In this document: positions 32,323 to 50,334 of the stretch, in pieces
Position numbering within the stretch: the first letter of the stretch is position 1
How the letters are laid out: the number at the start of each line of letters is the position of its first letter
Assembly: GCA_016214895.1 (NCBI GenBank)
Contig: JACRMR010000013.1
Location: 2,971 to 66,970, forward strand
From: Candidatus Zhuqueibacterota bacterium
Lineage (GTDB): Bacteria > Electryoneota > RPQS01
Direction of reading: 5' to 3'
Length of the DNA: 64,000 bases
Notes under the pieces: model-generated
What the model was told of the DNA's origin: nothing
Databases searched by the model: none
Seen by the model: only the letters and a program-made list of their open reading frames with translations
Made by a program: the position numbers and the translations under genes

Positions 32323-32465
32323 GCGCCGCGGAATTGATTTTCCCTGACGAAGTGGGTATATTGAGATTGGGGGAAAGTGGGGGCTCGCCACCATCCGTGC
32401 ATTCAATGATAATACCTCTCCATCGTAGCGATTGCGGGGAATGCCCGAAGAATCGGATCCGATCA

Positions 32466-34117: not shown

Positions 34118-34906
34118 ATGACCATGTCATACGAAAATCTGATTCTGCAAATCGACGGCGCGGTCGCGACCGTGACCGTGAATCGACCGAAAACGCTGAA
34201 CGCGCTCAATATTGCGACCGTGCGCGAACTGCATGACTGCTTTCAATCACTGGGCGACAACGACGCTGTCGGTGCCATCATTATGACCGGGGCCGGTGAG
34301 AAATCGTTCGTATCCGGCGCTGATATTCAGGAAATCCGTGAACTTGATGTGATTTCCGGTAAGGAGTTTGCTGATCGTGGCAACAAGCTATACTCCCGGA
34401 TTGAGAAATTCCAAATCCCTGTAATTGCTGCTGTTAACGGTTATGCGCTCGGTGGAGGCTGTGAATTAGCGATGGCCTGTCATTTGCGCGTCGCTGCGGA
34501 GAACGCCAAGTTCGGACAACCGGAGATCAACTTGGGGATTATTCCGGGTTACGGCGGCACTCAGCGTCTCCCGCGGTTGATTGGCCGGGGGAAGGCTCTT
34601 GAACTGCTCTTGACCGGCCGCGTCATCCCCGCGTCTGAGGCCTTGAACATTGGCCTCGTGAATTCGGTCGTCCCGCAGGCAGACTTGATGACCGTCGTAC
34701 GCAAGCTGGCGGAGGAGCTCGCGGCGAAGCCACGACGCGCGGCGGCAGCGATCTTGAACGCCGTCGAGAATGGACTGCAGTTGGGACTGGACATGGGGTT
34801 GCGCGTTGAGGAAAGCTGGTTCGCGTACTGCTGTGGGACCGAAGACAAGAATGAAGGTACCGCAGCATTCCTGGAGAAACGCAAAGCCGTATTCACGGGC
34901 AGGTGA
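34118..34906 (+). CDS. enoyl-CoA hydratase/isomerase (crotonase) family protein
   Basis: Crotonase-fold signatures (FVSGADIQE..., LGGGCELAMACHLRVAA, GIIPGYGGTQRL). The ATG immediately follows the hutU stop. Confidence 0.85.
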   Translation: MTMSYENLILQIDGAVATVTVNRPKTLNALNIATVRELHDCFQSLGDNDAVGAIIMTGAGEKSFVSGADIQEIRELDVISGKEFADRGNKLYSRIEKFQIPVIAAVNGYALGGGCELAMACHLRVAAENAKFGQPEINLGIIPGYGGTQRLPRLIGRGKALELLLTGRVIPASEALNIGLVNSVVPQADLMTVVRKLAEELAAKPRRAAAAILNAVENGLQLGLDMGLRVEESWFAYCCGTEDKNEGTAAFLEKRKAVFTGR

Positions 34907-34912
34907 GCAGCC

Positions 34913-36172
34913 GTGCCCGACTTATTCGTACATAATATCGGCCTGCTGGCAACACCGCTCATGGCCGATCGTCAACGGACTGAGCGGTTCGTGCTGGAGC
35001 GGCGGAATGCCGCGATTCTCGTGCGCGAGGGGAGAATAGTCGAGATCGGCCCGGAGCGGGAGCTGGAGTCGCGCATGCCGGCGGACTGTCCGCGATTCAA
35101 CGCTGACGGATGCCTGGCCACACCCGGATTGATCGACTGCCACACCCACCCCGTGTTCACGGGCAATCGCGCCGACGAGTTCCACATGCGCAATGCGGGA
35201 CGGTCGTATCAGGAAATCGCCGTAGCCGGCGGCGGAATTCAGGCAACCGCGCGAAAAGTGCGCGCGGCTGCGGTGGACCAGATTGTGAAAGAATCGCTGC
35301 CGCGTTTCGATCGGTCGCTCGCCGCGGGCGTAACGACCATCGAAGCAAAATCCGGCTACGGACTGGACTGGGACGGCGAGGCGAAGCTGCTGCGCGCGCT
35401 CGAACTCATCAGTCTGCAGACTCCGCAGCGCATGCACAAGACGTTTCTGATTCATGCGGTTCCGGAAGCGATGGAGGGACAACGCGAGCGCTTTCTTGAT
35501 GAGGTTGCTGCCGAGATGATTCCGCGCGTGGCCGAGCTGAAGCTCGCTTCGGCGGCCGATGTCTTCTGCGAGCAGGGCGCATTCTCCGTCGATGAATCGC
35601 GCAGGATGCTGCGCGCCGCACTGGACCATGGACTTCAAGTTGCGGTGCACGCCAACCAATTCGGACACTCGGGCGGCGCGCTGCTGGCCGCGGAGCTCGG
35701 AGCCAGAAGTGCGGACCACTTGGAGTACCTGAACGACCAGGAAATCACGGCACTGGCGAAGGCCAACGTCTGCGCGGTCATGTTGCCCGCGAGTGTGTTC
35801 TTTCTGGGAACGCTGCCCTACCCGCCGGCGCGAAAGTTGATTGAGCAGGGTGCGCGGGTTGCGATTGCCACGGACATGAATCCAGGCTCGGCCATGACCG
35901 AATCGATGCCGTTCTGCATGACGGCCGCCGCGATCTATGCGAAAATGAACCCGGCGGAGTTGTTGTGGGCGGTCACCCTCGATGCGGCGGCGGCACTGCG
36001 CGCCGACAGCGACGTGGGGTCGCTGGAGGCCGGCAAGGCGGCGGACATCTGCCTCTGGCGGGCACCGGACCTGAATTCACTGTCCTATCATCTCGGCGAT
36101 TTCCGCGCATTCACCGTTATTATCGGCGGTGAACTGGCGTGGGAGGATCGCGATGCGACGGCAAGATATTAG
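34913..36172 (+). CDS. hutI: imidazolonepropionase
   Basis: Amidohydrolase with HutI homology (LIDCHTHPVFTGNRADEF, VHANQFGHSGG). Confidence 0.9.
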   Translation: MPDLFVHNIGLLATPLMADRQRTERFVLERRNAAILVREGRIVEIGPERELESRMPADCPRFNADGCLATPGLIDCHTHPVFTGNRADEFHMRNAGRSYQEIAVAGGGIQATARKVRAAAVDQIVKESLPRFDRSLAAGVTTIEAKSGYGLDWDGEAKLLRALELISLQTPQRMHKTFLIHAVPEAMEGQRERFLDEVAAEMIPRVAELKLASAADVFCEQGAFSVDESRRMLRAALDHGLQVAVHANQFGHSGGALLAAELGARSADHLEYLNDQEITALAKANVCAVMLPASVFFLGTLPYPPARKLIEQGARVAIATDMNPGSAMTESMPFCMTAAAIYAKMNPAELLWAVTLDAAAALRADSDVGSLEAGKAADICLWRAPDLNSLSYHLGDFRAFTVIIGGELAWEDRDATARY

Positions 36173-36989
36173 TGTCGGAACGTCGGGGTGGAAATTCGAC
36201 GATTGGGCCGGGACGTTTTATCCGCTGCGGGTCCCCCGGTCGAAGTGGCTCGAATTCTATGCCGCCCGGTTTCCCGTCGGCGAGATCAACAGCACGTACT
36301 ATCGCATCGCGGGACGCGCGACTTACGCGGGCATCGCGGGCAAGACGCCGGCGGGGTTTCGGCTCTTCGCGAAAGTGCATGGTGATGTGACGCACTCCCG
36401 AAGCGAGCCCGCGGAATCGATGCGCGCATTGCTGGGCGGACTCGCACCGCTCACGGAGCGCGGGAAATTGCTCGGATTGCTGGCGCAGTTTCCCGCTGCA
36501 TTCCAGCGATCAGATTCCAACATCGACTACTTGCTGCGCGTGCGCGACTTGTGCGCGAGTCGGTCACTGTACGTGGAGTTCAGACATCGCAGTTGGGATT
36601 GCGACGGCGTTCGAGCCACGCTGCGTGACGAGGGCGTGAGCTGGGTCAGCCCCGACGAGCCGCAATTGGAAAGCCTGATGCCTCCCGCATTGCATGTGAC
36701 GGGGGACTATGCGTACGTGCGGTTGCACGGTCGGAATGCGCGGGCATGGAACGACCGTACGGCGGGCGACCGGTATGATTACAACTACAGCGTTGACGAA
36801 TTGGTATCGGTTGGGCAGAAGTTGCTCGGCCTGCCGGACTCTGTCAAGCGGGCATTTGTCCTGTTTAACAATTGTTATCATGGTCAGGCGGCAACGAACG
36901 CGATTTGGTTGCAGCGATGGTTAGGCGACACGAACCACGAGGACGATTCGGCGAGCGAGAATGGACTCCATCTATTCACTGATTCATAG
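36153..36989 (+). CDS. DUF72 (YecE-like) family protein
   Basis: DUF72-like sequence (FYPLRVPRSKWLEFYAARFPVGEINSTYY, YVRLHGRN). ATG at 36153 after a gggagga RBS, overlapping the hutI 3' end by 20 nt. Confidence 0.7.
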   Translation: MRRQDISVGTSGWKFDDWAGTFYPLRVPRSKWLEFYAARFPVGEINSTYYRIAGRATYAGIAGKTPAGFRLFAKVHGDVTHSRSEPAESMRALLGGLAPLTERGKLLGLLAQFPAAFQRSDSNIDYLLRVRDLCASRSLYVEFRHRSWDCDGVRATLRDEGVSWVSPDEPQLESLMPPALHVTGDYAYVRLHGRNARAWNDRTAGDRYDYNYSVDELVSVGQKLLGLPDSVKRAFVLFNNCYHGQAATNAIWLQRWLGDTNHEDDSASENGLHLFTDS

Positions 36990-38382
36990 CTCGCAACATC
37001 GCGAGGCCTGGCGGCGGTTTCGATTGCCGACGGAGGATTGGCAGATTCTGAACAGCCACCTCCGTTCGCGATCAGCGAATCCGACGCTGCCACGGCTGCC
37101 CTATCCGTTGGAAGGGTACGTCAGCGCCGCGCCGGGTCCGCACGAATTCGCTTGCGTCGCTGAACCCGCGATCATGTCTCCCGGACCGTTTCGCGAAGCG
37201 GCGTTGCAACATTCGATTGCACTCACGACGCAACGCGATGCGGTGGACTCCTGCCGGGCGTGGTTTGGCTTGAGTGTCGAGTCGGCGCCGATGGACGCCG
37301 CGGACAACGCCTGGGCGCAACTCGCGCTGATCGACGCGGCCGAACGGACGGCGCTGACCGAGCTGGAAGCGAGGGTGATGCGTGCGGTCAGACTCGCCGA
37401 TGTGATGGACCTCGAAGGCGAGCCGCTGTTCCTATCGCTGAGCAAAATGGTTCAGCATCTATTCGCCCCGACCTATCTGGAGATTCAGCCGGACCTCTCG
37501 TCCGATTTCTGGTCGGAGCGCGACGGGGAGTGGGTCTGGCATGAGCCGAAAGATCTGCCGCAGGAGGCGGCAACCGAGCTCGTGCCACGACACAAATTGG
37601 CGCTCTATCGCCGCAATCGGATCTCGCTCATCGATGAGTGTGCGACCGCGGCGGAGTTTACGCGAGGAAAAGAGCTGCACGACCGGGGATACGTGTTCGC
37701 CGTGTTGGTGCCGCTGGTGCGCAACGACCGCCGCCTCGGTGTGCTCAAGCTGCTGTATGCCTCGCCGCTTACCATTTTACCGGTCGAACTCGATGCGCTG
37801 GAACTGTTCCGCGCCGAATTTTCAACCGTCTTCGACTGCTGCAGCAAGTTCTCGCGCACACAGCGACTCGCCACGATCGACGGGTTGACGCAGTTGTTTA
37901 ATCATCGCTTTTTGCGGGAACAACTGCGCACGGAATTCCAGCGCGCGAAGCGCTACAAGAAGATGATGACGTTCGTCATGATTGATATCGACGACTTCAA
38001 GACCTACAACGATACTTATGGCCATCTGGCCGGAGACCGGGTGTTGGCCGAGGTGGCGGCGACGATCCGCTCGTCCGTGCGCGACATTGACTTTGTGGCC
38101 CGCTACGGCGGCGAGGAGTTCGCGCTGATTCTGCCCGAGATCACTGCGGAGAACGGATTGATTGTGGCCGACAAAATTCGCAAGGCGATCGAAGCCCGTT
38201 CGCTGGTGACTGAGGAAGGCGAGTCGATGGGTGCAATCACGGTGTCGTGCGGAGTCACCGACAACCGCGATGCGGCGGCTCCGGAAGATCTCATCTCCGG
38301 CGCCGATCGCGCGCTCTACTGGGTGAAGCGACACGGAAGAAACCTGGTCAAGTTAGCAAATGTCGAATCGCAAGCGATCTGA
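36961..38382 (+). CDS. GGDEF-domain diguanylate cyclase with ~300-aa N-terminal (GAF-like?) sensor region
   Basis: C-terminal GGDEF domain with an intact active site (RYGGEEFALIL) and conserved FVMIDIDDFKTYND. Start uncertain. Confidence 0.85.
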   Translation: MDSIYSLIHSSQHREAWRRFRLPTEDWQILNSHLRSRSANPTLPRLPYPLEGYVSAAPGPHEFACVAEPAIMSPGPFREAALQHSIALTTQRDAVDSCRAWFGLSVESAPMDAADNAWAQLALIDAAERTALTELEARVMRAVRLADVMDLEGEPLFLSLSKMVQHLFAPTYLEIQPDLSSDFWSERDGEWVWHEPKDLPQEAATELVPRHKLALYRRNRISLIDECATAAEFTRGKELHDRGYVFAVLVPLVRNDRRLGVLKLLYASPLTILPVELDALELFRAEFSTVFDCCSKFSRTQRLATIDGLTQLFNHRFLREQLRTEFQRAKRYKKMMTFVMIDIDDFKTYNDTYGHLAGDRVLAEVAATIRSSVRDIDFVARYGGEEFALILPEITAENGLIVADKIRKAIEARSLVTEEGESMGAITVSCGVTDNRDAAAPEDLISGADRALYWVKRHGRNLVKLANVESQAI

Positions 38383-39868
38383 GTTTCCGCGAGTCCTGTT
38401 TGTTACGTCGGAGGTCACGCCGTTCAGCAAAACCGGCGGCCTGGCCGATATCAGCGGCGCGCTGCCGAAGGCGCTGAGTCGATTGGGCTGCGACGTGCGG
38501 GTGTTGTCCCCCTTGTACGGCTGCGTGGACGGGGAGCGACACGCACTGGCGGTATCGGCAAACGGCGCTCAACCTTCTCTGACTATTAACGGCCGGGCGC
38601 TGCACGCCGAATTTGCACGCGCGCCCCGCCGTGACTCTGAACCGGATTTCTGCTTCCTGCGCTGTGACGCGCTGTACGACCGGCCGGGGATTTACGTCGA
38701 TCCCTTCAGTAATCAGGACTACGTGGACAACGACTACCGGTTTATCGCACTCGCCAAGTGTGCATTCGACCTGTGTCGGAGCGATCACTGGACGCCGGAT
38801 GTCCTGCAGTGCAATGACTGGCAGGCCGGTCTGGTTCCGCTCTACCTGTCGCAGCGGCGGCGGCGCGGAGAATTCGCGGAGAGTCGTGCGGTGATGACGG
38901 TTCATAACATGGCCTATCACGGTTGGTTCAAGGCGGATACTGTCGCTCGCATCGGCGACGCGGAAGCGTTGTATTTTCCGGGCGGACCGATCGAATTCTA
39001 CGGGATGGTCAATTTCCTGAAAGCCGGGCTCGAATTTGCCGACGGGCTGAGCACTGTCAGTCCCACTTACGCGCACGAGATCCAGAGCAGCTATGATTTC
39101 GGCTTCGGACTGGAAACCGTATTGCGGGGGTCGCCGCGACCGCTGCAAGGAATTCTCAACGGGATCGACACCGAGGTCTGGAATCCGGAGACTGATCCGC
39201 GCATCGCCGCCAACTTTGGCATCGGTACGCTGCCCTGGAAAGTGGAGAACAAGCGCGCATTGTGCGCCAAGGCCGGGTTTGAATTCAACGCCGGCGTCCC
39301 GGTATTCGCGGTGATTTCACGGATTGTGGGCCAGAAGGGTTTCGAGATTCTCGCGCCGCTCATCACGGAAATTCTGAGCTTGCCGGCGCAGTTCGTGATC
39401 CTCGGCAGCGGCGACCCGTACTACGAGCACATGTTCCACGAACTGGCGCGCGTGTATCCCGACCGATTCGCGGTGAAGCTGGCCTACGACGAAGATCTGG
39501 CGCACTTGATCGAGGCCGGTTCGGACATGTTCCTCATGCCGTCCAAATTCGAACCGTGCGGACTGAATCAAATGATGAGCATGCGTTATGGCACGATTCC
39601 GATTGTGCGGGTCACCGGGGGACTTGCCGATACCGTGATCGACGCCGACACGGATTTGTTGCACGGAACCGGTTTCCGTTTCTATGACTATACGAGCGGC
39701 GAGCTGATGCACGCGGTCGAACGCGCGGTTTCCGCCTATCAAGATGCCGACCGCTGGCGGAGGATCCAGCGTAACGCGATGAGTCAGGATTTCTCGTGGG
39801 ATCGGTCGGCAAGGCAGTATCTTCAACTGTATCAGGAATGCCTCTCTCAACCGCCGCGCGTGGCCTGA
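38360..39868 (+). CDS. glgA: glycogen synthase (GT5, ADP-glucose type)
   Basis: N-terminal SEVTPFSKTGGLADISGALPKAL and GT-B C-terminal domain. Overlaps the GGDEF gene 3' end by 23 nt. Confidence 0.9.
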   Translation: MSNRKRSEFPRVLFVTSEVTPFSKTGGLADISGALPKALSRLGCDVRVLSPLYGCVDGERHALAVSANGAQPSLTINGRALHAEFARAPRRDSEPDFCFLRCDALYDRPGIYVDPFSNQDYVDNDYRFIALAKCAFDLCRSDHWTPDVLQCNDWQAGLVPLYLSQRRRRGEFAESRAVMTVHNMAYHGWFKADTVARIGDAEALYFPGGPIEFYGMVNFLKAGLEFADGLSTVSPTYAHEIQSSYDFGFGLETVLRGSPRPLQGILNGIDTEVWNPETDPRIAANFGIGTLPWKVENKRALCAKAGFEFNAGVPVFAVISRIVGQKGFEILAPLITEILSLPAQFVILGSGDPYYEHMFHELARVYPDRFAVKLAYDEDLAHLIEAGSDMFLMPSKFEPCGLNQMMSMRYGTIPIVRVTGGLADTVIDADTDLLHGTGFRFYDYTSGELMHAVERAVSAYQDADRWRRIQRNAMSQDFSWDRSARQYLQLYQECLSQPPRVA

Positions 39869-40728
39869 GGGTCGCGCTCGGCCTGCTGGCGCTGCTGGGG
39901 AGCTGCGTAAGTTCCGACGCGCGAGACTGGAAGGTCATCCTGCCGAGTGAGTCGGTGACGCTCCGGGATCCGCGAGCGTTGTCAATCGGTCCGGACGATT
40001 TGCTCTATGTCGCCGATGCCGGCAATCAGCGTGTCGTCGCCGTAGATACGAGCGGGACGCTGATCGCGGAAGCCGGTGGGTTCGGGAATGGCAACGGGCA
40101 GTTCCAAAGTCCGGAGGACGTCGCGGCGGAGTGGGGTACCAGTGTCTGGGTATTGGACTATGGAAATCGCCGCATTCAGCGATTCTCCCGCTCGCTGAGC
40201 TGGCAGGCAACGTACGAAGTCCTGATCGATGACACCCAGGACCGACGCAGCCCCGCGGCGATTGCACTGGCGCCCGACGGCGACCTTATCGTCTATGACC
40301 GCGACGGTCAGACTTTGCTGCGCTACGATCCGGGGTTCTTTCCACGGGCCAGCTTCGACGGCGCTCGCGGTTATGTTGGCGAAGTTGCCTCGATGGCGTT
40401 TGTTCGCGGACACGGCCTGTGCTGGATCGAGCGCGGCGGCCATACGCTGTATCGTTGCGATGCCATGCTGAATCCTCTGCCGTCAATTGAACTGCCGCCC
40501 GAATACGGTGAGACCACACTGGCCGCCGCGGATAGTTCACTACTGACCGGCGCCCGCGGGTTTGTGATCCGGTGGCAAAGCAGCGCGCGACCCGCTGATA
40601 CGCTCTTTGATGCGCGGACAGTGATCGGCAAGGAAATTCGCACAATCACCAGCTTGGCGATGGCGTCGAGCGGGACCTTGTACCTGCTGGACCGGACCAC
40701 GGGAAGAGTTGTTCGCGTATCGCCCTGA
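39838..40728 (+). CDS. NHL-repeat beta-propeller lipoprotein
   Basis: Signal peptide with lipobox LLGSC (MPLSTAARGLRVALGLLALLGSC). NHL-type repeats (LYVADAGNQRVVAVD, VWVLDYGNRRIQRF, LYLLDRTTGRVVRV). The ATG at 39838 lies inside the glgA 3' end. Confidence 0.75.
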   Translation: MPLSTAARGLRVALGLLALLGSCVSSDARDWKVILPSESVTLRDPRALSIGPDDLLYVADAGNQRVVAVDTSGTLIAEAGGFGNGNGQFQSPEDVAAEWGTSVWVLDYGNRRIQRFSRSLSWQATYEVLIDDTQDRRSPAAIALAPDGDLIVYDRDGQTLLRYDPGFFPRASFDGARGYVGEVASMAFVRGHGLCWIERGGHTLYRCDAMLNPLPSIELPPEYGETTLAAADSSLLTGARGFVIRWQSSARPADTLFDARTVIGKEIRTITSLAMASSGTLYLLDRTTGRVVRVSP

Positions 40729-43700
40729 TTCCTCCGGAGTGAGACACCCGGCATCAAGCCTTGGCATCGGCTGTGCGATGGCGCTGCTGTTGATTGCACT
40801 GAACGCGCCGACCGCCTGCGCGATTCCGTCGCGAATCGGACAGGCGAGATTCGTGTCCACGGGTGCTACCGACACGTTGCTCACGCTCAGCGTGCCATGG
40901 ATTGAGATCGATTCCATTCAAGTCACGGCCCGCGGCCAGACGCTTTCCGAGTTTGAACGCTGGCGGCTGATTGAACCCGGCAACCGCATCTGGCTCTTCC
41001 GCCCCTTACCCCAAGGCGACACCCTTTCCGTTCGCTTCATCTATCGTTCGATCCCGCTCTATCGTCTCTACAGCCGACATGTCCTCAGCGAACTCGCCGT
41101 ATCTCATTCCCGCATCGGAGTAGCGGATAGCCTGCGGATCCTTCCCGGTTCGCGTTCGGGTCTTTCCGAAACGTCGGGATGGAGTCGCCTGAACAAGTCC
41201 GGTTCGCTGATCCGCAGTGTGCAGGTAGGCAGCGGCCAGGACCTCGCACTCGAGTCAGCCCTCAATCTCACGGTGCAGGGACGAGTCGGAAAAAACATCG
41301 ATGTCGTCGCGGCGCTTACAGACCAGTCCACACCAATCCAGCCGGATGGCACCACCGAAGCCCTGAACGAACTGGAGAAAGTCTTCGTCACCGTCAAGAG
41401 CCCGCGCATGAGCGCGACGGTAGGCGACTTCAACCTGGATCTGACCGGCGGCGACTACGACGACTATCATCGCAAGCTCACGGGGCTTAGCGCCGCGTAT
41501 CATGACTCGGTGGCAGTGGTTGCCGTAAGCGCGGCGACAAGCAAAGGACAGTTCTTTTCCAATTCAATCGCGGGTCAGGAAGCCAATCAAGGTCCGTACC
41601 CTTTGCGAGACAAGAACGGCAGCAGCGGAATTCTGGTCCTGGCCGGAACTGAGCATGTCTGGCTCGACGGCGAACCGATGCGACGCGGCGAAGGCAACGA
41701 TTATGTCATCGATTACAGCAGCGGCGAGATCAAGTTCACGGCCAAGCGAGTCATTACGTCGGCAAGCCGGATGGTAATCGACTTTGAGTACTCGAACGAG
41801 GACTTTGAACGCTCGTTCGTCAATCACCGTACAGGGGTTAGTGTCAAGCGCGGAGTGCTCACCACGGCGATCACGCTGATCAACGAAAGCGACAGCCGCG
41901 ATCGACCGGTCGGAACGTCGTTTACCGACGCGGACCGCGACGCACTACGGCTGGCCGGTGATCGCGCGGATGCGGCGGTCGTGTTCGCCGCGGATTCGCT
42001 GGGACCCGGTCGCGGTGACTATGTGCGCATCGACACCGCGGCCAACGCGGAATCCTATTCCATTTTTCGCTACTCAGAGCGCGATACCGCCGGCGCGCTG
42101 ACCGGACAATGGCAAGTCTATTTCGACGAGTTCGCCGTCGGCGCGGGCGACTATGAGGCCACGGCGGACTCGCGAGGGCTGACCTACTTCTACTGGGTCG
42201 GACCCGGCAACGGTCGATACCGGCCGTATCGGCGACTGCCGTTGCCGCGTCGATACGACTTCGGCGACCTGCGCGTGTCCACCCGACCCCTGGCGGGCCT
42301 CGACCTGTCGTTCGAGGGCGCGTTAAGCCGCAATGATCTGAATACGTTTTCAAGCAGCGACGATGAAGACAACGGCGGCACGGCGTTCTCGGTGAGCGGG
42401 GAGTATTCCCGGCAACGTCCGTCCATTCTGGGAGTTCGTCCGCGCAGCCTGTCCGTGCTCACCCGCATGCGCGGACGGAACGAGGACTTCGTCGAGATCA
42501 ACCGCGCACTGGAAACGGAGTTCGAACGCGAGTGGGACGCCAATCGCAACCAGGGAACACAGGAGTTGATCCGCGAGGCGGAACTCCGGTTGATGCCGAT
42601 CCATGCGGTGAGTTTCGCCGCCAGCTATGGTGATCTGCTTCGCCCGGATGTGCAGACTTCAGCGCGCCGGAAATTGAGCGCCGGCTGGACGATTGCCAAC
42701 GGGTGGCGGACATCGGCGAGTCACCTCGACATCCGCGCCGACGACTCGACGAACTCGCGGCAAAGCGATTGGATTCGGCAACGCGCTGCGATGGACGGGG
42801 CGATATCGAGATTCGCGCCGCGCGTTTCCGTCGATCGCGAGCGCAAGCGCGACGAACGTCGCAGCGGTTTGAGCGGTTTTCGGTTTGTTGACTACGCAAT
42901 CGGGTCGGCAGTGGATCTGGGATATCGGCTGAACGCCGACGCGCAGTTCTCGCGTCGGAACGACGAGGAGCTGACACCGGCGGACCGGTTTGAGAAGTCG
43001 TCCCGGGCCGATGATATGAGCGGCCTGCTGTCATGGCAGCCGCCGGAACTTGGCAGCGGCTCGCTGCGTTATACTCACCGCGAGAAGAGTTTTCCGGGTC
43101 TGGATTCCGCCGACATCGTGACAGACGTGGGACGCCTCGAAACGGTATTCGCGCCGCGGCGCAGGGTCGTGGAAGGAAACCTGATCTACGAGGCGGCGAA
43201 AACTCAGTCAGCGGATCAGATTCTGGTGGCGATTCAGGTTCCCGCCGGAACAGGAAGTTACCGGAAAGAGGGCGACAAATACGTTCCCGATGATCAAGGT
43301 GACTACATCCTCGTTCCGCGAAACACCGGTTCCTATCAGCCGGCCACGGATCTAAACCTTTCGGCGCAAGCTTCAATTCGCGCCGATGAGCTGGGACCCG
43401 CAGCGGCCGCCTGGATCCGGGCGCTGTCGAGTGAGACTGAACTGACGATCGAGGAACGCACACGGCTGCCATTGTCGGCGCGGATGGTGCTCTTGGATCC
43501 AACGCGCTTTCGCGGAGACTCCACGCTCTATGGCACGTTCTCGCTGCGCGAGGACTTACACGTCCTGCGCTTGAGCCGCAAGCGTTCGTTTCGCCTGCGC
43601 TACCGGCATGCGGAGTCGCTGCAGAATCAGTATTTGAACGGCGGTCAACGCCGGTCGCTCCGGGAAGCGGCCCTGCGCACGCGGATGCTGTACACGGAGA

Positions 43701-44167
43701 TCCTGCGCGGTGAGACCGAAATCGGTACTTCGACCGAGACGATCGGCTACGACAATGGAGTCCTGCCGGACCGGGACATCGCCCGGTTCGAACTGACTCA
43801 GAACAACTCGCTCAGCCTGACGCGGTTGTGGGAACTGGGATTGGATTTCGGCGCGCAGGAGATCCGCGACGAACAAACATCGACGCAGGCCAGTTTGCGG
43901 GACGTCAAGCCGCGCGCGACCCTGACCATGGCCGGTCGCGGCAGACTGGATGCCGAGTTCGCCTGGTCTCACGCCACTGCCAATCGCGAGAGCATTCCGT
44001 TTGAGCTCGCGCGCGGCGCCAACCGCGGCGAAAATTTTCGCTGGTCGGTCAGAGGCACGTACGCCTTCGGCCAGAACTTTTCCGCTTCGATCTCCTACAC
44101 CGGAAGGCGTGACGCGGGGGAGAGAGTAATCCATACGGGGCGTGTGGAGGCGCGGGCGTCGCTATGA
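40709..44167 (+). CDS. uncharacterised large secreted/outer-membrane protein (1152 aa), beta-rich, no recognisable family
   Basis: N-terminal signal peptide MALLLIALNAPTACA|IPS (probable true start 40778). No Cys after the signal and no internal hydrophobic helices. Amphipathic alternating patterns with Y/R/D/G-rich turns throughout. The C-terminus RVEARASL has alternating hydrophobics. The stop overlaps the start of the downstream Omp85 gene (ATGA). Confidence 0.6.
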   Translation: MFAYRPDSSGVRHPASSLGIGCAMALLLIALNAPTACAIPSRIGQARFVSTGATDTLLTLSVPWIEIDSIQVTARGQTLSEFERWRLIEPGNRIWLFRPLPQGDTLSVRFIYRSIPLYRLYSRHVLSELAVSHSRIGVADSLRILPGSRSGLSETSGWSRLNKSGSLIRSVQVGSGQDLALESALNLTVQGRVGKNIDVVAALTDQSTPIQPDGTTEALNELEKVFVTVKSPRMSATVGDFNLDLTGGDYDDYHRKLTGLSAAYHDSVAVVAVSAATSKGQFFSNSIAGQEANQGPYPLRDKNGSSGILVLAGTEHVWLDGEPMRRGEGNDYVIDYSSGEIKFTAKRVITSASRMVIDFEYSNEDFERSFVNHRTGVSVKRGVLTTAITLINESDSRDRPVGTSFTDADRDALRLAGDRADAAVVFAADSLGPGRGDYVRIDTAANAESYSIFRYSERDTAGALTGQWQVYFDEFAVGAGDYEATADSRGLTYFYWVGPGNGRYRPYRRLPLPRRYDFGDLRVSTRPLAGLDLSFEGALSRNDLNTFSSSDDEDNGGTAFSVSGEYSRQRPSILGVRPRSLSVLTRMRGRNEDFVEINRALETEFEREWDANRNQGTQELIREAELRLMPIHAVSFAASYGDLLRPDVQTSARRKLSAGWTIANGWRTSASHLDIRADDSTNSRQSDWIRQRAAMDGAISRFAPRVSVDRERKRDERRSGLSGFRFVDYAIGSAVDLGYRLNADAQFSRRNDEELTPADRFEKSSRADDMSGLLSWQPPELGSGSLRYTHREKSFPGLDSADIVTDVGRLETVFAPRRRVVEGNLIYEAAKTQSADQILVAIQVPAGTGSYRKEGDKYVPDDQGDYILVPRNTGSYQPATDLNLSAQASIRADELGPAAAAWIRALSSETELTIEERTRLPLSARMVLLDPTRFRGDSTLYGTFSLREDLHVLRLSRKRSFRLRYRHAESLQNQYLNGGQRRSLREAALRTRMLYTEILRGETEIGTSTETIGYDNGVLPDRDIARFELTQNNSLSLTRLWELGLDFGAQEIRDEQTSTQASLRDVKPRATLTMAGRGRLDAEFAWSHATANRESIPFELARGANRGENFRWSVRGTYAFGQNFSASISYTGRRDAGERVIHTGRVEARASL

Positions 44168-45903
44168 GAATGAGCATAATTCTGCTTTGCCTCCTGCGAT
44201 GTGTCGTCGATTCAAGCGCCGAGACGGCAGCCGTCGAGCGAATTCGGTGCTCCGGAAACCGGGTCTTTTCCGATGCCGAGTTGGTGCGAATGCTCGGCGT
44301 CGAGCGCGGACAGCAGCTTGACGCCGTTGCGATGGAAGCCGCGGGCAGCCGGCTGGTCGATTCGCTGATTGCCCGCGACCTGCTGTTTGCGCGAACCGAC
44401 AGCATCCGCGGCGAGCGCGGCAAGCGCGGCACGGTGTTAACGGTCTTTGTTACGGAAGGGTCCACGGCGGTTGTCGATGAACTGCATTGGGCGGGCGATT
44501 CCGGACGAGTAGCTGACGCGAATGCCGACCTGTTGCTGACGCGTGGCGCGTCGTTTCAATGGAGTCGTCTGCGTGCCGACTTGAATCGGCTCCTCGACCA
44601 GTTCACCTCCGCGGGCTATCCGTATGCGCGTGTCGAATTGGAACGCGTGGACGCGGACTCCACCGATCACACCGTTGATCTCTATCTGAAGCTCACCAGC
44701 GGACCGTTCACCGAGATCGAATTCGTCGAGTTCAGCGGATTGCGCGGGACCAGCGAGGCCTTCTTGAGGCGGTACCTGAGATTTCGGGTACCGGTTCCCT
44801 ACAGCGATGCCGCGGTCGCGCGGGGAAAGCGAAGACTGGCACGACTGGATTTTCTGCGGTCAGTCGGAGATCCGCGAATCGTCGTACGAGAGGATGGGAG
44901 CAGCGGTGTGCAGTTCCCGGTCGAAGAGGCACGCGCCACACGACTTGATGCCGTGGCCGGATATCTGCCCGGCGAGCAGGGTAAGAACGGGACGGTCAGC
45001 GGACTTGTCAACCTCGATTTCATCAATCTGCTCGGAAGCGGACGCAAGGGCCATGTGCACTGGGCGCGGCCCGATTCACGAACGCAGAGCGTCGAGATCG
45101 CCTATCGCGAACCGTGGGTGTTGAATTCGCCGCTCAGTCTGGCGGGCGATTTTTCGCAGCGGATCGATGATACGAGCTATGTCACGCGCAAGATGGGCGT
45201 GGTGGCGGACGCCGAGCTGGGATCGAATGTCGTCGTCACCGGAGCGGTTCGCTTCGAGGCTGTGTTGGTGGATTCGGCATCGGCGGTCCGTCTGGGGTTG
45301 GCGAACAGCAGTACCGTGGTGTTCGAAACCGGGCTGGCGATTGACACGCGCGATTTCCCGCCAAATCCACGGCGTGGATTCCGGTTCGCGACGACCGTGG
45401 GCAGCGGCACAAAGCGCCGCGAACGGCTGAATGACTCGTTGGATGCCGGCCGGTTCGGGGTGCGGCGCGTGAGTGCCGATGCCGAAGCCGTCGCCGAGCC
45501 GCTCCCCTACTGGGTAGCCAGTCTCGCCTTGCACGCGCGCGGGACGGAGAGTGATGAACCGGAAATCCCGGTTTCGGACATGTATCGACTGGGCGGAGCG
45601 CGAACCCTGCGCGGCTATCGCGAGGAGCAGTTTCAGGGTTCGCGGCTGGGCTGGGCGTCCGCCGAGTTGAGGTACTTGCTCGGCGAGGCATCGCGACTCT
45701 ATCTCTTCGCGGATGCCGGTGCGATCTACCGCGAAGTGCGGACGGCCAGCGGTCCAGCATCGTCGTCCCTGTTTCGGCCGGCGACCGGAGTCGGTCTGCG
45801 ACTCGAATCGACGCTGGGCACCTGGGGCTTCGATTACGGCGTCGGTCAGGACGACCGCGTGCTGAACGGCAAAGTACATTTTTCATTGTTCACAAGTTTC
45901 TGA
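44164..45903 (+). CDS. Omp85-family outer-membrane protein (POTRA + 16-strand barrel; TamA/TpsB-sized, 579 aa)
   Basis: Signal peptide MRMSIILLCLLRCVVDSSA|E. POTRA-like N-terminal region (IRCSGNRVFSDAELVRMLGV...). C-terminal bacterial surface antigen barrel ending in the beta-signal KVHFSLFTSF. Confidence 0.8.
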   Translation: MRMSIILLCLLRCVVDSSAETAAVERIRCSGNRVFSDAELVRMLGVERGQQLDAVAMEAAGSRLVDSLIARDLLFARTDSIRGERGKRGTVLTVFVTEGSTAVVDELHWAGDSGRVADANADLLLTRGASFQWSRLRADLNRLLDQFTSAGYPYARVELERVDADSTDHTVDLYLKLTSGPFTEIEFVEFSGLRGTSEAFLRRYLRFRVPVPYSDAAVARGKRRLARLDFLRSVGDPRIVVREDGSSGVQFPVEEARATRLDAVAGYLPGEQGKNGTVSGLVNLDFINLLGSGRKGHVHWARPDSRTQSVEIAYREPWVLNSPLSLAGDFSQRIDDTSYVTRKMGVVADAELGSNVVVTGAVRFEAVLVDSASAVRLGLANSSTVVFETGLAIDTRDFPPNPRRGFRFATTVGSGTKRRERLNDSLDAGRFGVRRVSADAEAVAEPLPYWVASLALHARGTESDEPEIPVSDMYRLGGARTLRGYREEQFQGSRLGWASAELRYLLGEASRLYLFADAGAIYREVRTASGPASSSLFRPATGVGLRLESTLGTWGFDYGVGQDDRVLNGKVHFSLFTSF

Positions 45904-47567: not shown

Positions 47568-47882
47568 ATGTACGCAGTATTTAATGTGACCCCCGGCCGT
47601 CAGGTCAAAGCCGCCCCCGGCAGTACCGTGAAGGTCGATTATTTCGAAGAAGCCAAAGCAGGCCAGAAGCTGGTCTTCGATGAGGTGCTGCTGGTTTCTG
47701 ACGGAGCCGTGCCAAAGATCGGAGCTCCCTACGTCAAGGCCAAGGTGCATGCCACCGTCGTCGGACACGGGCGCAATCCCAAAGTTGTCGTCTTCAAGAA
47801 GAAGAAGCGAATCGACTATCACAAGCAGCGCGGCCACAAGCAGCACTTCACGACGCTGCACATCGACTCGATCGAGGCCTGA
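47568..47882 (+). CDS. rplU: 50S ribosomal protein L21
   Basis: [24 protein letters not shown]: L21. Confidence 0.95.
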
Positions 47883-47944
47883 GTCTTGTCAGCGGTCAAT
47901 CCGCCGCTGCTCCAGTTTCAAAGTATTCCAACCGCTTCCCTCCC

Positions 47945-48208
47945 ATGGCTCACAAAAAAGGTCAAGGCTCTTCGCGCAACGGCCGCGACAGTCAGCCCAA
48001 GATGCTCGGCGTCAAGCGTTTTGCCGGTCAGCATGTCAGTGCCGGAGAGATTCTCGTGCGCCAGCGCGGGACCAAAATCAAGCCGGGCGAAAACGTCGGT
48101 TGCGGGCGCGATCATACGCTGTTTGCCCTGATCGAGGGCAAAGTGAAGTTCGTGACTTCCACAAATGCACTGCGGAAGTCCGTCCATATCGAGCCCGTGG
48201 AGGCGTAG
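47945..48208 (+). CDS. rpmA: 50S ribosomal protein L27
   Basis: [26 protein letters not shown]: L27. Confidence 0.96.
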
Positions 48209-48267
48209 CGGACTCGAATTGATTTAGCGGCCGATTGTCACTCGCCGCGCTTCGTTTCAAGCATTTT

Positions 48268-48301
48268 GCGCGGCCTGATCTTCAGCGCCGCGCTTTCTTT
48301 T
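48268..48301 (+). terminator. rho-independent terminator after rpmA
   Basis: Stem gcgcggc/gccgcgc followed by tttcttttg. Confidence 0.65.
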
Positions 48302-48354
48302 GTTGACAAAACCATTCCGATTTCAGCTATGTCCCTCCCCAAACACCTCCTCTC

Positions 48355-49278
48355 ATGAAAATCACCGTCATCGGCGCCGGCAACGTCGGAGCCACCTGCG
48401 CGTACATTCTCGCCGCTAAGAACATTTGCAGAGAAGTCGTCGTCATCGATATTCTTGACGGCATTCCGCAGGGCAAGGGTCTGGATATGTACCAGGCCGC
48501 ACCCGTTGGAGCTTACGACACCGTTGTGCGCGGCACTAACGCGTACGCCGACACCGCCAACTCCGATATTATCGTCATGACCGCCGGTAAGCCGCGTCAG
48601 CCCGGAATGTCGCGGGATGACTTGCTGGCCGCGAATGTGGTGATCATCAAGGACGCGATTACGCAGGCGGCCAAGGTCTCGCCCAACGCGTTTATCATCA
48701 TGGTCTCGAATCCGCTGGATGCGATGTGCTTCGCCGCTTTGAAGCTGTCCGGCTTCCCGCACAAAAAAGTGTTTGGAATGGCCGGGATTCTCGACACGGC
48801 TCGTTACCGGACGTTCATTGCGATGGAACTGGAAGTGTCCGTACGGGACGTCGCGGCGGTTGTGCTCGGAGGTCATGGCGACACGATGGTTCCACTGCCG
48901 CGGCTGACTACCGTCGGCGGAGTGCCGCTGACGGCGCTGCTGCCCAAGGAGCGCATTGATGCGATCGTGCAGCGCACTCGTGACGGCGGTGCTGAAATCG
49001 TGAAGTACTTGAAGACCGGCTCGGCGTTTTACGCACCGGCGGCGGCCGCGGTCGAAATGGTCGAGAGCATCGTGCACGATCAGAAGCGCGTGCTGCCCTG
49101 CGCTGCATGGCTGCAGGGCGAATACGGCTATCGCGACATCTACATGGGTGTCCCTGTGATCGTCGGCAAGCAGGGCGTCGAGAAGATCCTTGAGATCCCC
49201 TTCAACGACGATGAAAAGGCCATGTTCGCCAAGTCGGCCGATGCCGTGACCTCGCTCTTGCAAGCGACGAAAGTCTAA
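48355..49278 (+). CDS. mdh: malate dehydrogenase (LDH-like, NAD-dependent)
   Basis: Rossmann [12 protein letters not shown] with MDH/LDH catalytic loop and homology. Confidence 0.92.
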
Positions 49279-49342
49279 CCCGAAATTGCGGGTTTGAATT
49301 GGTCTTGCGAGTTTCCCGCCACTTAATTGAGGAGACCGAATC

Positions 49343-50047
49343 ATGAAGACCGTTGGTGTAGTCCTCGCCGGTTGCGGCTACCTGGACGGGGCCGAGATCT
49401 ACGAGTCGGTGCTCACATTGCTCAGCTTGGATCGGCTCGGCGTTGCTTATCAATGTTTGGCGCCGGATCTGCCGCAGATGCACGTTGTGAATCACGTGAG
49501 CGGCGACGCGATGGGGGAGTCCCGTCGCGTACTGGTCGAAGCGGCTCGCATCGCCCGCGGCAAGATCGCCGCGCTGGATAACAGTTGGGTCGCCAAACTC
49601 GATGCGGTGATTCTCCCCGGCGGATTTGGCGCGGCCAAGAATTACTGTGACTTTGCAACCAAGGGTGAGGCCTGTTCGATTCAGCCGGTGGTGGAATCGT
49701 TCATGCGCGCGATGGTTGCGGCGCGCAAGCCCGTCGGAGTGATCTGCATTTCCCCGATCGTCCTGGCCCGAGCGCTCAAGGGGACCAACGTGCATGCGTC
49801 GCTCACGCTTGGCGCCCAGTCGAGTGCGTCCGCCGCCGCCGAGGCGTTCGGGTCCAAGCATGTTGTCTGCGAGGTCACGGACTGCGTCGCCGATCATGAG
49901 AATCTGATCGTCTCCACACCCGCCTATATGTACAGCGCGCGGATTGCGGACGTTGAAATCGGGATCGAGAAGCTCGTCCGGCAGGTCGTCCACATGACTC
50001 ACGAAGCGACTGAAAAGCCCCGGGATTCGGTTTTGACGACGGCATAG
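49343..50047 (+). CDS. elbB: DJ-1/PfpI-family protein, ElbB-like (glutamine amidotransferase-like class 1 fold)
   Basis: MKTVGVVLAGCGYLDGAEI...DAVILPGGFGAAKN, with the nucleophile-elbow Cys in GVICISP. Confidence 0.8.
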   Translation: MKTVGVVLAGCGYLDGAEIYESVLTLLSLDRLGVAYQCLAPDLPQMHVVNHVSGDAMGESRRVLVEAARIARGKIAALDNSWVAKLDAVILPGGFGAAKNYCDFATKGEACSIQPVVESFMRAMVAARKPVGVICISPIVLARALKGTNVHASLTLGAQSSASAAAEAFGSKHVVCEVTDCVADHENLIVSTPAYMYSARIADVEIGIEKLVRQVVHMTHEATEKPRDSVLTTA

Positions 50048-50075
50048 CGGAATCGCCTGACAGCACGAAACGCGA

Positions 50076-50107
50076 AAGACCGGTTGTATTGGCCGGTCTT
50101 TTTTTAT
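50076..50107 (+). terminator. rho-independent terminator after elbB
   Basis: aagaccgg-ttgtattgg-ccggtctt followed by a T7 run. Confidence 0.85.
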
Positions 50108-50334
50108 ATCTTGATTCGTTGGGGTATGCCCTGCCGTGGTCCGCGCCGTTGCATCCGGTTTTCCATGAGTTTGAGGGTCTGCCGCCGGATGTGAGCGACG
50201 ACTTCTAACGAGAAGTGACCCGCGGTTTGACGTGTTGTGCCTCGGCGTTGACGATCCGCGGAGGCCGGGTGGGGCAATATCGTTTTCGCCGCGACGCATT
50301 TCGAATCACGAATTTTAGCCGGTGAAAGGCGACC

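What the first reader, a model, noticed from the sequence alone, without database searches (positions are those of the whole stretch)
40709..44167. 1152-aa orphan protein with giant-beta-barrel-like sequence character
After a cleavable signal peptide the protein contains no Cys and no hydrophobic helices. It is dominated by alternating hydrophobic/polar dyads separated by D/G/N/R/Y-rich turns. GDY-containing turns recur (GGDYDDY, GRGDYVRID, GAGDYEATAD, QGDYILV, GNDYVIDY). The C-terminal strand V-E-A-R-A-S-L is amphipathic. These properties fit a very large outer-membrane beta-barrel or beta-solenoid; no family signature was recognised by eye.
Basis: seen in the sequence. Interest (0 to 1): 0.6.

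Follow-up and report, generated by a model that had tools for sequence, protein, structure and literature searches.

The report
Giant outer-membrane barrel protein family
This gene encodes a very large outer-membrane beta-barrel protein predicted to have about 38-40 strands, more than any solved single-chain barrel, and it belongs to a widespread but unnamed and unstudied family in KSB1, Calditrichota, Ignavibacteria and related bacteria.

Summary
It is not an orphan. A profile search finds 4,808 cluster representatives, and at least 579 species carry a relative, in KSB1, LCP-89, Calditrichota, Zhuqueibacterota and Ignavibacteriota. All are annotated "hypothetical", and no Pfam or NCBIfam family reaches threshold.

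AlphaFold2 (pLDDT 86, pTM 0.74) gives:
- a signal peptide;
- a small N-terminal beta module on a roughly 40-residue disordered tether;
- an up-down meander of about 40 long strands.

Every strong PDB fold match shown is an outer-membrane barrel, with the type 9 translocon SprA first. The family ends in a classic OMP beta-signal with a terminal Phe. My own covariation test supports the hairpin meander. It does not prove that strand 1 pairs with strand 40.

The similarity to SprA is confined to a 55-85 residue module. That module occurs twice in the protein and also matches phage tail proteins.

In KSB1-like lineages the gene sits tightly between an exported NHL beta-propeller gene and a 3-POTRA BamA/TamA-type Omp85 gene.

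Best reading: a giant, partner-assisted outer-membrane conduit whose cargo is unknown. It is a new variant of the giant-barrel kind and a good structural target.

The parts
39796..40728 (+). Upstream partner gene: Sec-exported NHL-repeat six-bladed beta-propeller (about 296-310 aa; the likely start is ATG 39838).
   Evidence: Pfam NHL E 6.5e-16. PDB sequence hits are NHL propellers of Thin/TRIM71/TRIM2 and the PknD sensor. A homologue lies directly upstream of the giant gene in 53 of 79 loci with room. Its signal peptide is type I in 50 of 53 loci; the window copy has a doubtful lipobox, LLGSC.
40709..44167 (+). Giant outer-membrane beta-barrel protein. Alternative starts are GTG 40739 (NCBI call) and ATG 40778 (metagenome call). 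The stop codon TGA is at 44165-44167.
40709..40822 (+). Signal peptide: charged n-region, hydrophobic core LGIGCAMALLLIAL, cleavage site A-C-A|IPS.
   Evidence: Homologues have typical Sec type I signal peptides.
40829..41047 (+). N-terminal beta module, copy 1 of the 'V..G..L...DY.IDY..G.I.F' module. Inferred to be periplasmic.
   Evidence: AF2 strands at residues 18-90, pLDDT 84-91. Homologous to insertion 1: hhalign probability 98.3%, E 1.8e-14.
41060..41182 (+). Disordered tether of about 40 residues between the N-terminal module and the barrel.
   Evidence: pLDDT below 50 for residues 95-135.
41186..44161 (+). Transmembrane beta-meander of about 38-40 strands, the predicted giant barrel.
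   Evidence: AF2 DSSP strand list. Foldseek matches to outer-membrane barrels. Covariation between adjacent strands has median z 5.0-5.4 against 1.8-1.9 for non-adjacent pairs.
41309..41383 (+). Most conserved motif of the family (consensus VEVVAALTDQSTPIQPEGNTQTL.E.DKVFV). It lies in a loop that AF2 models with low confidence.
   Evidence: Invariant A178 L180 D182 P186 G191 E198 (P189 invariant in the 38-sequence alignment A2). pLDDT below 50 at residues 183-191 and 195-199.
41543..41803 (+). Insertion 1, copy 2 of the beta module, between wall strands 7 and 10. This is the only region that matches the SprA model.
   Evidence: TIGR04189 hit at residues 284-338 against model positions 601-653, 15.6 bits. 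The same region hits phage tail families. Strand 7 with strand 10 is the top non-adjacent covariation pair in both runs.
41909..42250 (+). Insertion 2: a domain of about 114 residues between strands 11 and 12, unrelated to the module. It carries the GRGDY and GAGDY motifs.
   Evidence: hhalign finds no similarity to the module.
44135..44164 (+). C-terminal beta-signal strand (HTGRVEARASL in the window; family consensus HTGRAEVRA.F).
44164..45903 (+). Downstream partner gene: Omp85 of the BamA/TamA type with 3 POTRA domains and a 16-strand barrel. Its ATG overlaps the giant gene's TGA (ATGA).
   Evidence: Pfam Omp85 and POTRA. AF2 pLDDT 91.8. Foldseek to BamA E 2e-28 with TMq up to 0.70, and to TamA E 8e-26. 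A homologue lies directly downstream in 42 of 76 loci with room. The ATGA overlap is visible.

Best explanation
SHOWN OR STRONGLY SUPPORTED. The gene encodes a Sec-exported protein whose body is a single very large up-down beta-meander of about 38-40 strands. It ends in a BAM-type beta-signal, so it is an integral outer-membrane beta-barrel of the giant class. A small beta module sits at the N-terminus on a disordered tether of about 40 residues. A second, homologous copy of that module and an unrelated domain of about 114 residues are inserted into loops that fall on the long-loop (extracellular) side. The protein belongs to a large, unnamed family that is a core gene in KSB1, LCP-89, Calditrichota, Zhuqueibacterota and Ignavibacteriota. 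In KSB1-like lineages, including this window, it forms a tightly packed three-gene unit: exported NHL propeller, then giant barrel, then 3-POTRA Omp85.

INFERRED. A barrel of this size has a lumen of roughly 6 nm by geometry. That is far too wide to be left open, so it most likely works as a gated conduit for large, possibly folded, macromolecules, in the manner of SprA. The inserted domains would form a partial cap on the outside. The periplasmic end would be closed or served by a partner. The co-encoded NHL propeller is about 4.5-5 nm across, which fits the lumen, and is the obvious candidate for plug or adaptor. The co-encoded Omp85 would be the dedicated insertase for this unusually large substrate, or a stable partner of it. 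The cargo is unknown.
For: - Fold: AF2 with a 71-sequence alignment gives pLDDT 86 and pTM 0.74, with about 40 long strands from residue 137 to 1128 joined mostly by 2-8 residue turns.
- Fold matches: all 50 PDB matches listed by Foldseek (of 217 at E<=1e-3) are outer-membrane barrels. SprA is first (E 2.7e-10), followed by TonB-dependent transporters, SusC, Deinococcus SlpA, LptD and MtrB.
- Independent covariation (mean-field DCA, Neff 287 and 350): sequence-adjacent strands are coupled (median z 5.0 and 5.4) against 1.8 and 1.9 for non-adjacent pairs.
- Loop parity (my reading of the strand list): 9 of the 10 loops longer than 9 residues fall on one side, as in outer-membrane proteins.
- Export and insertion signals: a signal peptide is present and the mature protein has no Cys. 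The terminal residue is Phe in 53 of 71 sequences, Leu in 10 and Phe-Arg in 8.
- Family size and spread.
- Cassette conservation: NHL upstream in 53 of 79 loci and Omp85 downstream in 42 of 76. The giant gene's stop and the Omp85 start overlap as ATGA.
- The Omp85 is insertase-type: 3 POTRA domains plus 16 strands, with the conserved RGY loop-6 motif.
- Module duplication: hhalign probability 98.3%.
Against: - Barrel closure was not demonstrated. The covariation between strand 1 and strand 40 is only z 2.0 (rank 267 of 740), rising to z 3.1 (rank 45 of 741) with more sequences.
- The first strands have the lowest confidence in the barrel (pLDDT 72-79).
- The strand count of 38-40 comes from a DSSP list, not from a hydrogen-bond analysis.
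- Nothing tested here bears directly on function.
- The NHL and Omp85 genes are not adjacent in Ignavibacteriota-type genomes, and the Omp85 is mostly absent next to the gene in Calditrichota. The partnership may therefore be lineage-specific or coincidental.
- In other lineages a related 590-aa Omp85 sits next to a GWxTD-domain gene instead.
- No interaction between the three proteins was modelled.
Confidence: 0.55

Rival explanations
1. It is the type 9 secretion translocon of the non-Bacteroidia FCB phyla: a half-length SprA/Sov orthologue that has lost most of the extracellular cap.
For: - The window encodes T9SS cargo: an M1 peptidase with a Por_Secre_tail C-terminal domain at 59235-61190. 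Relatives' loci also carry such cargo.
- SprA is the top fold match.
- 17 of 38 family members hit the SprA model TIGR04189, best E 6.3e-8.
- The Caldithrix abyssi homologue is named 'Cell surface protein SprA' in UniRef.
Against: - Scores are 15.6-30.3 bits against a cut-off of 200.
- The match covers only 55-85 residues (model positions about 601-686 of 2319). The same stretch also hits phage tail protein families.
- Profiles of the whole family and of the module find no SprA chain in the PDB even at E<=10.
- The C. abyssi protein itself gives no TIGR04189 hit at E<=1.
- TM-scores to SprA (0.25) are no better than to SlpA (0.23/0.26).
- No T9SS gene is adjacent in any locus examined.
- I could not obtain an SprA sequence. 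So I could not run a profile-profile comparison, and I could not ask whether the same genomes also carry a full-length SprA.
Confidence: 0.18
2. It is a structural or abundant outer-membrane protein, such as a major porin or an envelope tether in the manner of Deinococcus SlpA or OmpM, and not a dedicated translocon. The N-terminal module on its flexible tether would reach into the periplasm.
For: - The architecture is an N-terminal module, a tether of about 40 residues, then the barrel.
- The gene sits in a housekeeping neighbourhood and is a core gene.
- SlpA is among the best fold matches.
Against: - No SLH, OmpA-like or other peptidoglycan-binding domain was detected.
- The N-terminal module is homologous to a loop insertion on the opposite (long-loop) side, which is odd for a wall anchor.
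- The lumen would still need plugging.
Confidence: 0.12
3. It is an envelope-biogenesis exporter analogous to LptD-LptE, moving lipid, LPS or lipoprotein to the cell surface. The NHL protein would sit inside the barrel as LptE does.
For: - A giant barrel is encoded next to a small exported partner.
- LptD appears among the fold matches.
- The gene is a core gene.
Against: - No OstA_N or LptD Pfam signal was found in any of 38 members.
- The N-terminal module (about 70 residues) is too small for a Lpt beta-jellyroll.
- The NHL partner is not a lipoprotein in 50 of 53 loci, and it is absent next to the gene in Ignavibacteriota.
Confidence: 0.08
4. It is not a membrane barrel at all. It would be either a secreted beta-solenoid exported by the neighbouring Omp85 (two-partner secretion) or a periplasm-spanning TamB/AsmA-like lipid bridge working with a TamA-like Omp85.
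For: - An Omp85 gene lies immediately downstream, with weak ShlB Pfam hits (E 0.0065).
- The Omp85 has 3 POTRA domains, as TamA does.
- Barrel closure is unproven.
Against: - No TPS, haemagglutinin, DUF490/TamB or AsmA domain was detected.
- The signal peptide is cleavable, not a signal anchor.
- A C-terminal OMP beta-signal is present.
- The fold is an antiparallel hairpin meander with 11-26 residue strands, and all 50 listed fold matches (of 217 at E<=1e-3) are outer-membrane barrels.
- The Omp85 resembles BamA and TamA more than FhaC.
Confidence: 0.04

Closest known systems
SprA/Sov, the type 9 secretion translocon (PDB 6H3I, 8GL6; NCBIfam TIGR04189)
   Same: Both are giant single-chain outer-membrane beta-barrels found in the FCB group. 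SprA is the top fold match. They share a beta module of about 55-85 residues inserted in the barrel wall. The host genome encodes T9SS-type cargo.
   Different: This protein is half the length (about 1,130 aa against about 2,300-2,600). Its loops are mostly 2-8 residues, where SprA has a large cap. The predicted strand count is 38-40 against 36. HMM scores are 15-30 bits against a cut-off of 200. The gene neighbours are an NHL propeller and an Omp85, not T9SS components.
The predicted 'superfamily of large OMBBs' with 38 and 40 strands (families 002 and 003 of Solan et al., PNAS 2021, PMC8346858)
   Same: Both are computationally predicted single barrels larger than SprA, with the same strand numbers as my count.
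   Different: The paper's main text gives no taxa, accessions or domain content, and its SI is not held. Identity with this family could therefore not be tested. That work reported no cassette, no module duplication and no link to SprA.
LptD-LptE (26-strand barrel with a partner protein inside)
   Same: Both pair a large barrel with a small co-encoded exported partner, and both are core envelope genes. LptD is among the fold matches.
   Different: There is no OstA/LptD sequence signal. The partner is an NHL propeller that is usually not lipidated. The barrel is about 50% larger.
Deinococcus SlpA (30-strand barrel with an N-terminal periplasmic region; PDB 8AE1, 8AGD)
   Same: Both have a large barrel preceded by an N-terminal periplasmic part. 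The TM-scores are comparable to those for SprA.
   Different: No SLH domain or coiled coil is present. There is no evidence of trimerisation. The phylum is different.
TamA-TamB / BamA (an Omp85 insertase with a large client or partner)
   Same: The downstream gene is a 3-POTRA, 16-strand Omp85 of the BamA/TamA family with the RGY loop-6 motif.
   Different: Its neighbour is a barrel, not a TamB-like beta-taco. The Omp85 scores below the BamA and TamA NCBIfam cut-offs (112 against 297 bits, and 25.7 against 625).

Membership tests
SprA/Sov T9SS translocon (TIGR04189) | Whole-protein HMM score at or above the curated cut-off of 200 bits | tested here: not met
   The window protein scores 15.6 bits. 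The best of 38 members scores 30.3 bits (E 6.3e-8). The C. abyssi-type member has no hit at E<=1.
SprA/Sov T9SS translocon (TIGR04189) | Length of about 2,300-2,600 aa with a large extracellular cap built from loop insertions | tested here: not met
   The protein is 1,129-1,152 aa. It has only two sizeable insertions, of about 87 and 114 aa.
SprA/Sov T9SS translocon (TIGR04189) | 36-strand barrel | tested here: inconclusive
   The DSSP list gives about 40 strands, or 38 in the wall if strands 8-9 are an excursion. No coordinates were available.
SprA/Sov T9SS translocon (TIGR04189) | Works with PorV, Plug, SprE and GldKLMN, and is required for secretion of CTD cargo | not testable with these tools
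   No T9SS gene lies in the neighbourhoods examined. CTD cargo is present in the window. Genome-wide co-occurrence could not be searched.
BAM-assembled outer-membrane beta-barrel (general class) | Sec signal peptide and a C-terminal beta-signal ending in an aromatic or hydrophobic residue | tested here: met
   The family consensus is ...HTGRAEVRA.F, and the window protein ends ...RVEARASL.
BAM-assembled outer-membrane beta-barrel (general class) | Antiparallel up-down meander with short turns on one side and long loops on the other | tested here: met
   AF2 DSSP, covariation between adjacent strands, and 9 of the 10 long loops on one side.
BAM-assembled outer-membrane beta-barrel (general class) | First and last strands pair to close the barrel | tested here: inconclusive
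   The strand 1 to strand 40 covariation is z 2.0, then z 3.1 (rank 45 of 741). The two strands are near-best non-neighbour partners of each other, but the signal is not significant.
LptD (Pfam LptD/OstA_N) | N-terminal OstA beta-jellyroll and LptD barrel HMM match | tested here: not met
   No Pfam hit in the window protein or in 38 members.
TamB/AsmA-like (DUF490) | N-terminal signal anchor, beta-taco fold, C-terminal DUF490 | tested here: not met
   No Pfam or NCBIfam hit. The signal peptide is cleavable. The fold matches are barrels.
TpsA two-partner-secretion exoprotein | N-terminal TPS domain and a right-handed beta-helix | tested here: not met
   No TPS or haemagglutinin Pfam hit. The fold is a hairpin meander.
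TonB-dependent transporter / SusC | Plug domain, TonB box and 22-strand barrel HMMs | tested here: not met
   No Plug or TonB_dep_Rec Pfam hit. The fold similarity is only generic barrel similarity (TMq 0.13-0.19).
Predicted 38/40-strand OMBB superfamily (Solan et al. 2021) | Sequence membership in their family 002 or 003 | not testable with these tools
   The main text lists no accessions and the SI is not held.

The most novel reading that the evidence does not exclude
This family would be the largest single-chain membrane barrel in biology, at 38-40 strands against 36 for SprA. It would be the outer-membrane translocon used for type 9-style (CTD-dependent) secretion, or for a still undescribed export route, in KSB1, Calditrichota, Ignavibacteriota and allied phyla. 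It would work as a three-part machine with an NHL propeller plug or adaptor and its own Omp85.
Probability: 0.2. Interest if true: 0.85.

Novelty: new variant of a known kind. Interest (0 to 1): 0.58.

Why it matters
SprA, with 36 strands, is the largest barrel solved so far (bioRxiv 10.64898/2026.03.07.710327). How BAM-type machines fold such giants, and what such wide pores carry, are open questions.

This family offers a compact giant barrel of about 1,130 aa, half the mass of SprA. AF2 models it with high confidence. It has thousands of natural variants. It occurs in at least one cultured species, Caldithrix abyssi (Calab_3754). In many genomes it comes with a co-encoded dedicated Omp85 and a candidate plug. 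That makes three things directly testable: giant-barrel assembly, gating, and possibly the missing outer-membrane translocon of under-studied FCB phyla.

The family has no Pfam or NCBIfam model and is annotated "hypothetical" everywhere. Defining it would improve the annotation of thousands of genomes.

Tried and rejected
- Sequence search of the PDB with the single protein, the family profile and the module profile found no meaningful hit. SprA was not found even at E<=10.
- Pfam gave nothing above noise for the window protein and for 38 members.
- Model coordinates are not exposed to the Python sandbox. I replaced a direct closure check with a covariation test. The first run, with the full alphabet, timed out. 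The reduced-alphabet runs worked.
- I could not obtain any SprA sequence. The planned profile-profile comparison with SprA and the check for a full-length SprA in the same genomes were therefore not done.
- Literature searches on T9SS components in Calditrichota, Ignavibacteria and KSB1 gave nothing usable. The one relevant statement is that C. abyssi lacks the Bacteroidetes-type gliding machinery.
- A search for '40-stranded' barrels returned no paper.
- The idea that the NHL partner is an LptE-like lipoprotein was rejected: a lipobox is present in only 3 of 53 loci.
- The promoter and terminator scan around the cassette was no better than shuffled sequence.
- The TamB, TpsA, LptD and TonB-dependent transporter readings were rejected on domain and fold grounds (see the membership tests).

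Full report
**1. The observation**

The frame 40709..44167 (+) is open for 1152 codons from a TTG. After the predicted cleavage site (...NAPTACA|IPS) the 1114-residue mature protein contains no Cys. It has no hydrophobic stretch long enough for a helix; the best Kyte-Doolittle windows all lie in the signal peptide. GDY occurs 4 times against 0.23 expected.

These motifs are conserved, not chance. The corresponding G-D, N-D-Y, Y and G positions are invariant or nearly invariant in a 71-sequence alignment.

The start codon is ambiguous:
- GTG 40739, used by the NCBI protein MBI5059845.1 (1142 aa, [quoted passage not shown]).
- ATG 40778, used by a metagenome gene call (1129 aa).

Homologues have a positively charged n-region before the hydrophobic core. 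The ATG start would lack one, so an upstream start is more likely. Residue numbers below count from the ATG (M24 = 1), because the alignment and model were built on that form.

**2. Not an orphan**

- The first search returned 354 homologues, the best 120 nearly all about 1,000-1,200 aa and without any Pfam domain; every one that carries a source name is called "hypothetical".
- A search from a distant member returned 1,861.
- An exhaustive profile search of 1.84 billion cluster representatives found 4,808 at E<=1e-3 and 2,555 at E<=1e-30.
- At least 579 GTDB species representatives encode a relative. Records with informative names are candidate division KSB1, LCP-89, Calditrichota/Calditrichaceae, Candidatus Zhuqueibacterota, Ignavibacteriota (Ignavibacteriaceae, Melioribacteraceae) and unclassified Bacteroidota MAGs.
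- The cultured Caldithrix abyssi DSM 13497 has one, Calab_3754 (1207 aa).

**3. Fold**

AlphaFold2 with the 71-sequence alignment gave mean pLDDT 86 and pTM 0.74. The model contains:
- a small beta domain at residues 18-90;
- a disordered stretch at 95-135 (pLDDT below 50);
- about 40 long strands from residue 137 to 1128, joined mostly by turns of 2-8 residues;
- two large insertions, at about 256-342 and 378-491.

Foldseek against the PDB found 217 matches at E<=1e-3. All of the 50 listed are outer-membrane barrels: SprA (6H3I, 8GL6, 8GL8; E about 1e-10), TonB-dependent transporters, SusC, Deinococcus SlpA, LptD and MtrB. The TM-scores are low (0.25 at most), as expected when barrels differ in strand number. 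The result therefore identifies the fold class, not a specific relative.

The family consensus ends ...HTGRAEVRA.F. The last residue is Phe in 53 of 71 sequences, Leu in 10 (including the window protein) and Phe-Arg in 8. This is the classic OMP beta-signal.

If the last strand ends in the periplasm, 9 of the 10 loops longer than 9 residues fall on the extracellular side, and the N-terminus with its tethered module is periplasmic. This is my reading of the strand list.

Across the family alignment, 31 of 40 strands have one face clearly more hydrophobic than the other.

**4. Independent test of the topology**

- Sequence-adjacent strands are strongly coupled in antiparallel register, with median z 5.0 and 5.4. 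Non-adjacent pairs give 1.8 and 1.9, with a 99th percentile of 3.8-4.0. This supports the hairpin meander independently of AF2.
- The top non-adjacent pair in both runs is strand 7 (246-255) with strand 10 (343-356). Strands 8-9 and the domain between them are therefore an excursion, and the wall probably has 38 strands.
- Closure is not shown. The strand 1 to strand 40 score was z 2.0 (rank 267 of 740), then z 3.1 (rank 45 of 741). The two strands are near-best non-neighbour partners of each other, but the signal is not significant.
- No consistent pair of closure signals for two smaller barrels appeared.

**5. The link to SprA**

The only curated-model hit is TIGR04189 (SprA/Sov) at 15.6 bits against a cut-off of 200. 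It covers residues 284-338 against model positions 601-653.

Among 38 members, 17 hit this model (best 30.3 bits, model positions 604-686). The same stretch also hits phage distal-tail and tail-tube families and DUF2460. Profiles of the family and of this module find no SprA chain in the PDB even at E<=10.

The module occurs twice. The N-terminal domain and insertion 1 are homologous (hhalign probability 98.3%, E 1.8e-14). Insertion 2 is unrelated.

The C. abyssi protein is called "Cell surface protein SprA" in UniRef, yet it has no TIGR04189 hit at E<=1. That name is a lead, not a test. The protein is therefore not a member of the SprA family as curated. Whether the barrels share ancestry could not be tested, because I could not obtain an SprA sequence.

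**6. Gene neighbourhood**

In the window the genes from urocanase (32432) to RNase G (47510) form one tight same-strand string.

Immediately upstream of the giant gene lies an exported NHL-repeat protein, 39796/39838..40728.

Immediately downstream, with ATGA overlap, lies a 579-aa Omp85. AF2 on this Omp85 (pLDDT 91.8) shows three POTRA domains and a 16-strand barrel. Its best fold matches are BamA (E 2e-28, TMq up to 0.70) and TamA. The loop-6 RGY motif is invariant. It scores below the BamA and TamA NCBIfam cut-offs, and NCBI names it "BamA/TamA family outer membrane protein".

Across 87 loci, an NHL homologue lies directly upstream in 53 of 79 with room, and the Omp85 lies directly downstream in 42 of 76 (gene tables).
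- The full triad is found in the window's clade, LCP-89, KSB1 and Zhuqueibacterota.
- Calditrichota mostly keep only the NHL gene.
- In the Ignavibacteriota-type loci inspected the giant gene stands alone between housekeeping genes, for example ProRS, giant, Ogt, UvrD in L071.
- In those lineages a related 590-aa Omp85 lies elsewhere, next to a GWxTD-domain gene.

The NHL protein has a type I signal peptide in 50 of 53 loci. It is therefore a soluble exported propeller, not an LptE-like lipoprotein. The LLGSC sequence in the window copy is not conserved.

**7. Mechanism**

Shown: the protein is exported, is beta-signal-bearing, and is a giant-meander outer-membrane protein of a large conserved family. 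A duplicated module sits once on a periplasmic tether and once in a long loop.

Inferred: for n of about 38-40 strands at the usual tilt, barrel geometry gives a C-alpha diameter near 7.5-8 nm and a lumen near 6 nm. Such a pore must be gated or filled. The inserted domains and long loops total about 300 residues, which can cap only part of it.

The co-encoded NHL propeller is about 4.5-5 nm across, which is the right size to plug or dock at the periplasmic mouth. The co-encoded Omp85 is of the insertase type. It could be the dedicated assembly factor for this unusually large client, or a stable partner.

I therefore favour a gated conduit for large cargo that works like SprA, with cargo unknown (confidence 0.55 for the package; about 0.85 for "giant outer-membrane barrel").

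The rivals are listed with their evidence in the rival-explanation section:
- a miniature SprA orthologue serving the T9SS, whose cargo is present in the window;
- a structural or tethering major outer-membrane protein;
- an LptDE-like biogenesis exporter;
- a non-barrel TpsA- or TamB-like protein.

**8. Comparison with the literature, and novelty**

SprA, with 36 strands, is described as the largest known barrel (bioRxiv 10.64898/2026.03.07.710327). In that survey, strand-count labels of 38 and 40 were discarded as errors in labelling or as evolutionarily unlikely.

Solan et al. (PNAS 2021, PMC8346858) predicted a superfamily of single barrels with 38 and 40 strands from sequence and contact maps. 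The held text gives no taxa or accessions, so I cannot say whether this is the same family.

As far as I could determine, none of the following has been described:
- the cassette with an NHL propeller and an Omp85;
- the duplicated module shared with SprA and phage tail proteins;
- the phyletic pattern.

No curated model exists for the family. I rate it a new variant of a known kind (giant outer-membrane barrels), with interest 0.58.

Noticed in passing
window 59235-61190 (+): An M1-family peptidase carries a C-terminal Por_Secre_tail (T9SS type A sorting) domain (E 7e-8). This KSB1 genome therefore uses type 9-style secretion.
   Followed up: partly
window 32432-40728 (+); L002 and L003: The gene string urocanase, (enoyl-CoA hydratase), HutI, (DUF72), GGDEF, GlgA, NHL, giant, Omp85 is syntenic between the window, its clade (L003/L004) and LCP-89 (L002), although the proteins share only about 33% identity. 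No functional link between histidine utilisation, glycogen synthesis, c-di-GMP signalling and the barrel was found.
   Followed up: partly
window 47680-48222 (+), 48238-49344 (-), 49202-50299 (-), 1861-3267 (-): Four ORFs of 180-467 aa have no Pfam hit at E<=1e-4. Two of them overlap each other, so some may not be genes.
   Followed up: no
window 52054-53553 (-): One 498-aa frame combines a methyltransferase-type hit (residues 74-120) with a C-terminal RadC-like JAB domain (residues 380-497). It is either an unusual fusion or two genes read as one ORF.
   Followed up: no
L088 4719-8797 and L089 5754-8779: In Bacteroidota/Ignavibacteria-type genomes the related 590-aa, 3-POTRA Omp85 overlaps the end of a GWxTD-domain protein gene, within a conserved string that in L089 reads DUF3108, an ORF without a Pfam hit, Rce1-like, an ORF without a Pfam hit, CdsA, MiaB-like, GWxTD, Omp85 (L088 has an additional PfkB gene between GWxTD and Omp85). 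This may be another Omp85-client pair.
   Followed up: no
Caldithrix abyssi Calab_3754 (P0492; same cluster as P0079, L001 8001-11624): UniRef names this homologue 'Cell surface protein SprA', yet the cluster representative P0079 (from Calditrichota bacterium LG25) gives no hit to the SprA model TIGR04189 at E<=1. The database name is not backed by the current curated model.
   Followed up: yes
window 41309-41383 (+): The most conserved stretch of the whole family (AALTDQSTPIQPEGNTQTL.E.DK) is a loop that AF2 cannot place (pLDDT below 50). That pattern suggests a partner- or ligand-binding element.
   Followed up: no
L005 11305-13700: In one KSB1-type genome the triad is followed by an MBOAT acyltransferase and a 314-aa protein without a Pfam domain. 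This was not seen in the other loci inspected.
   Followed up: no
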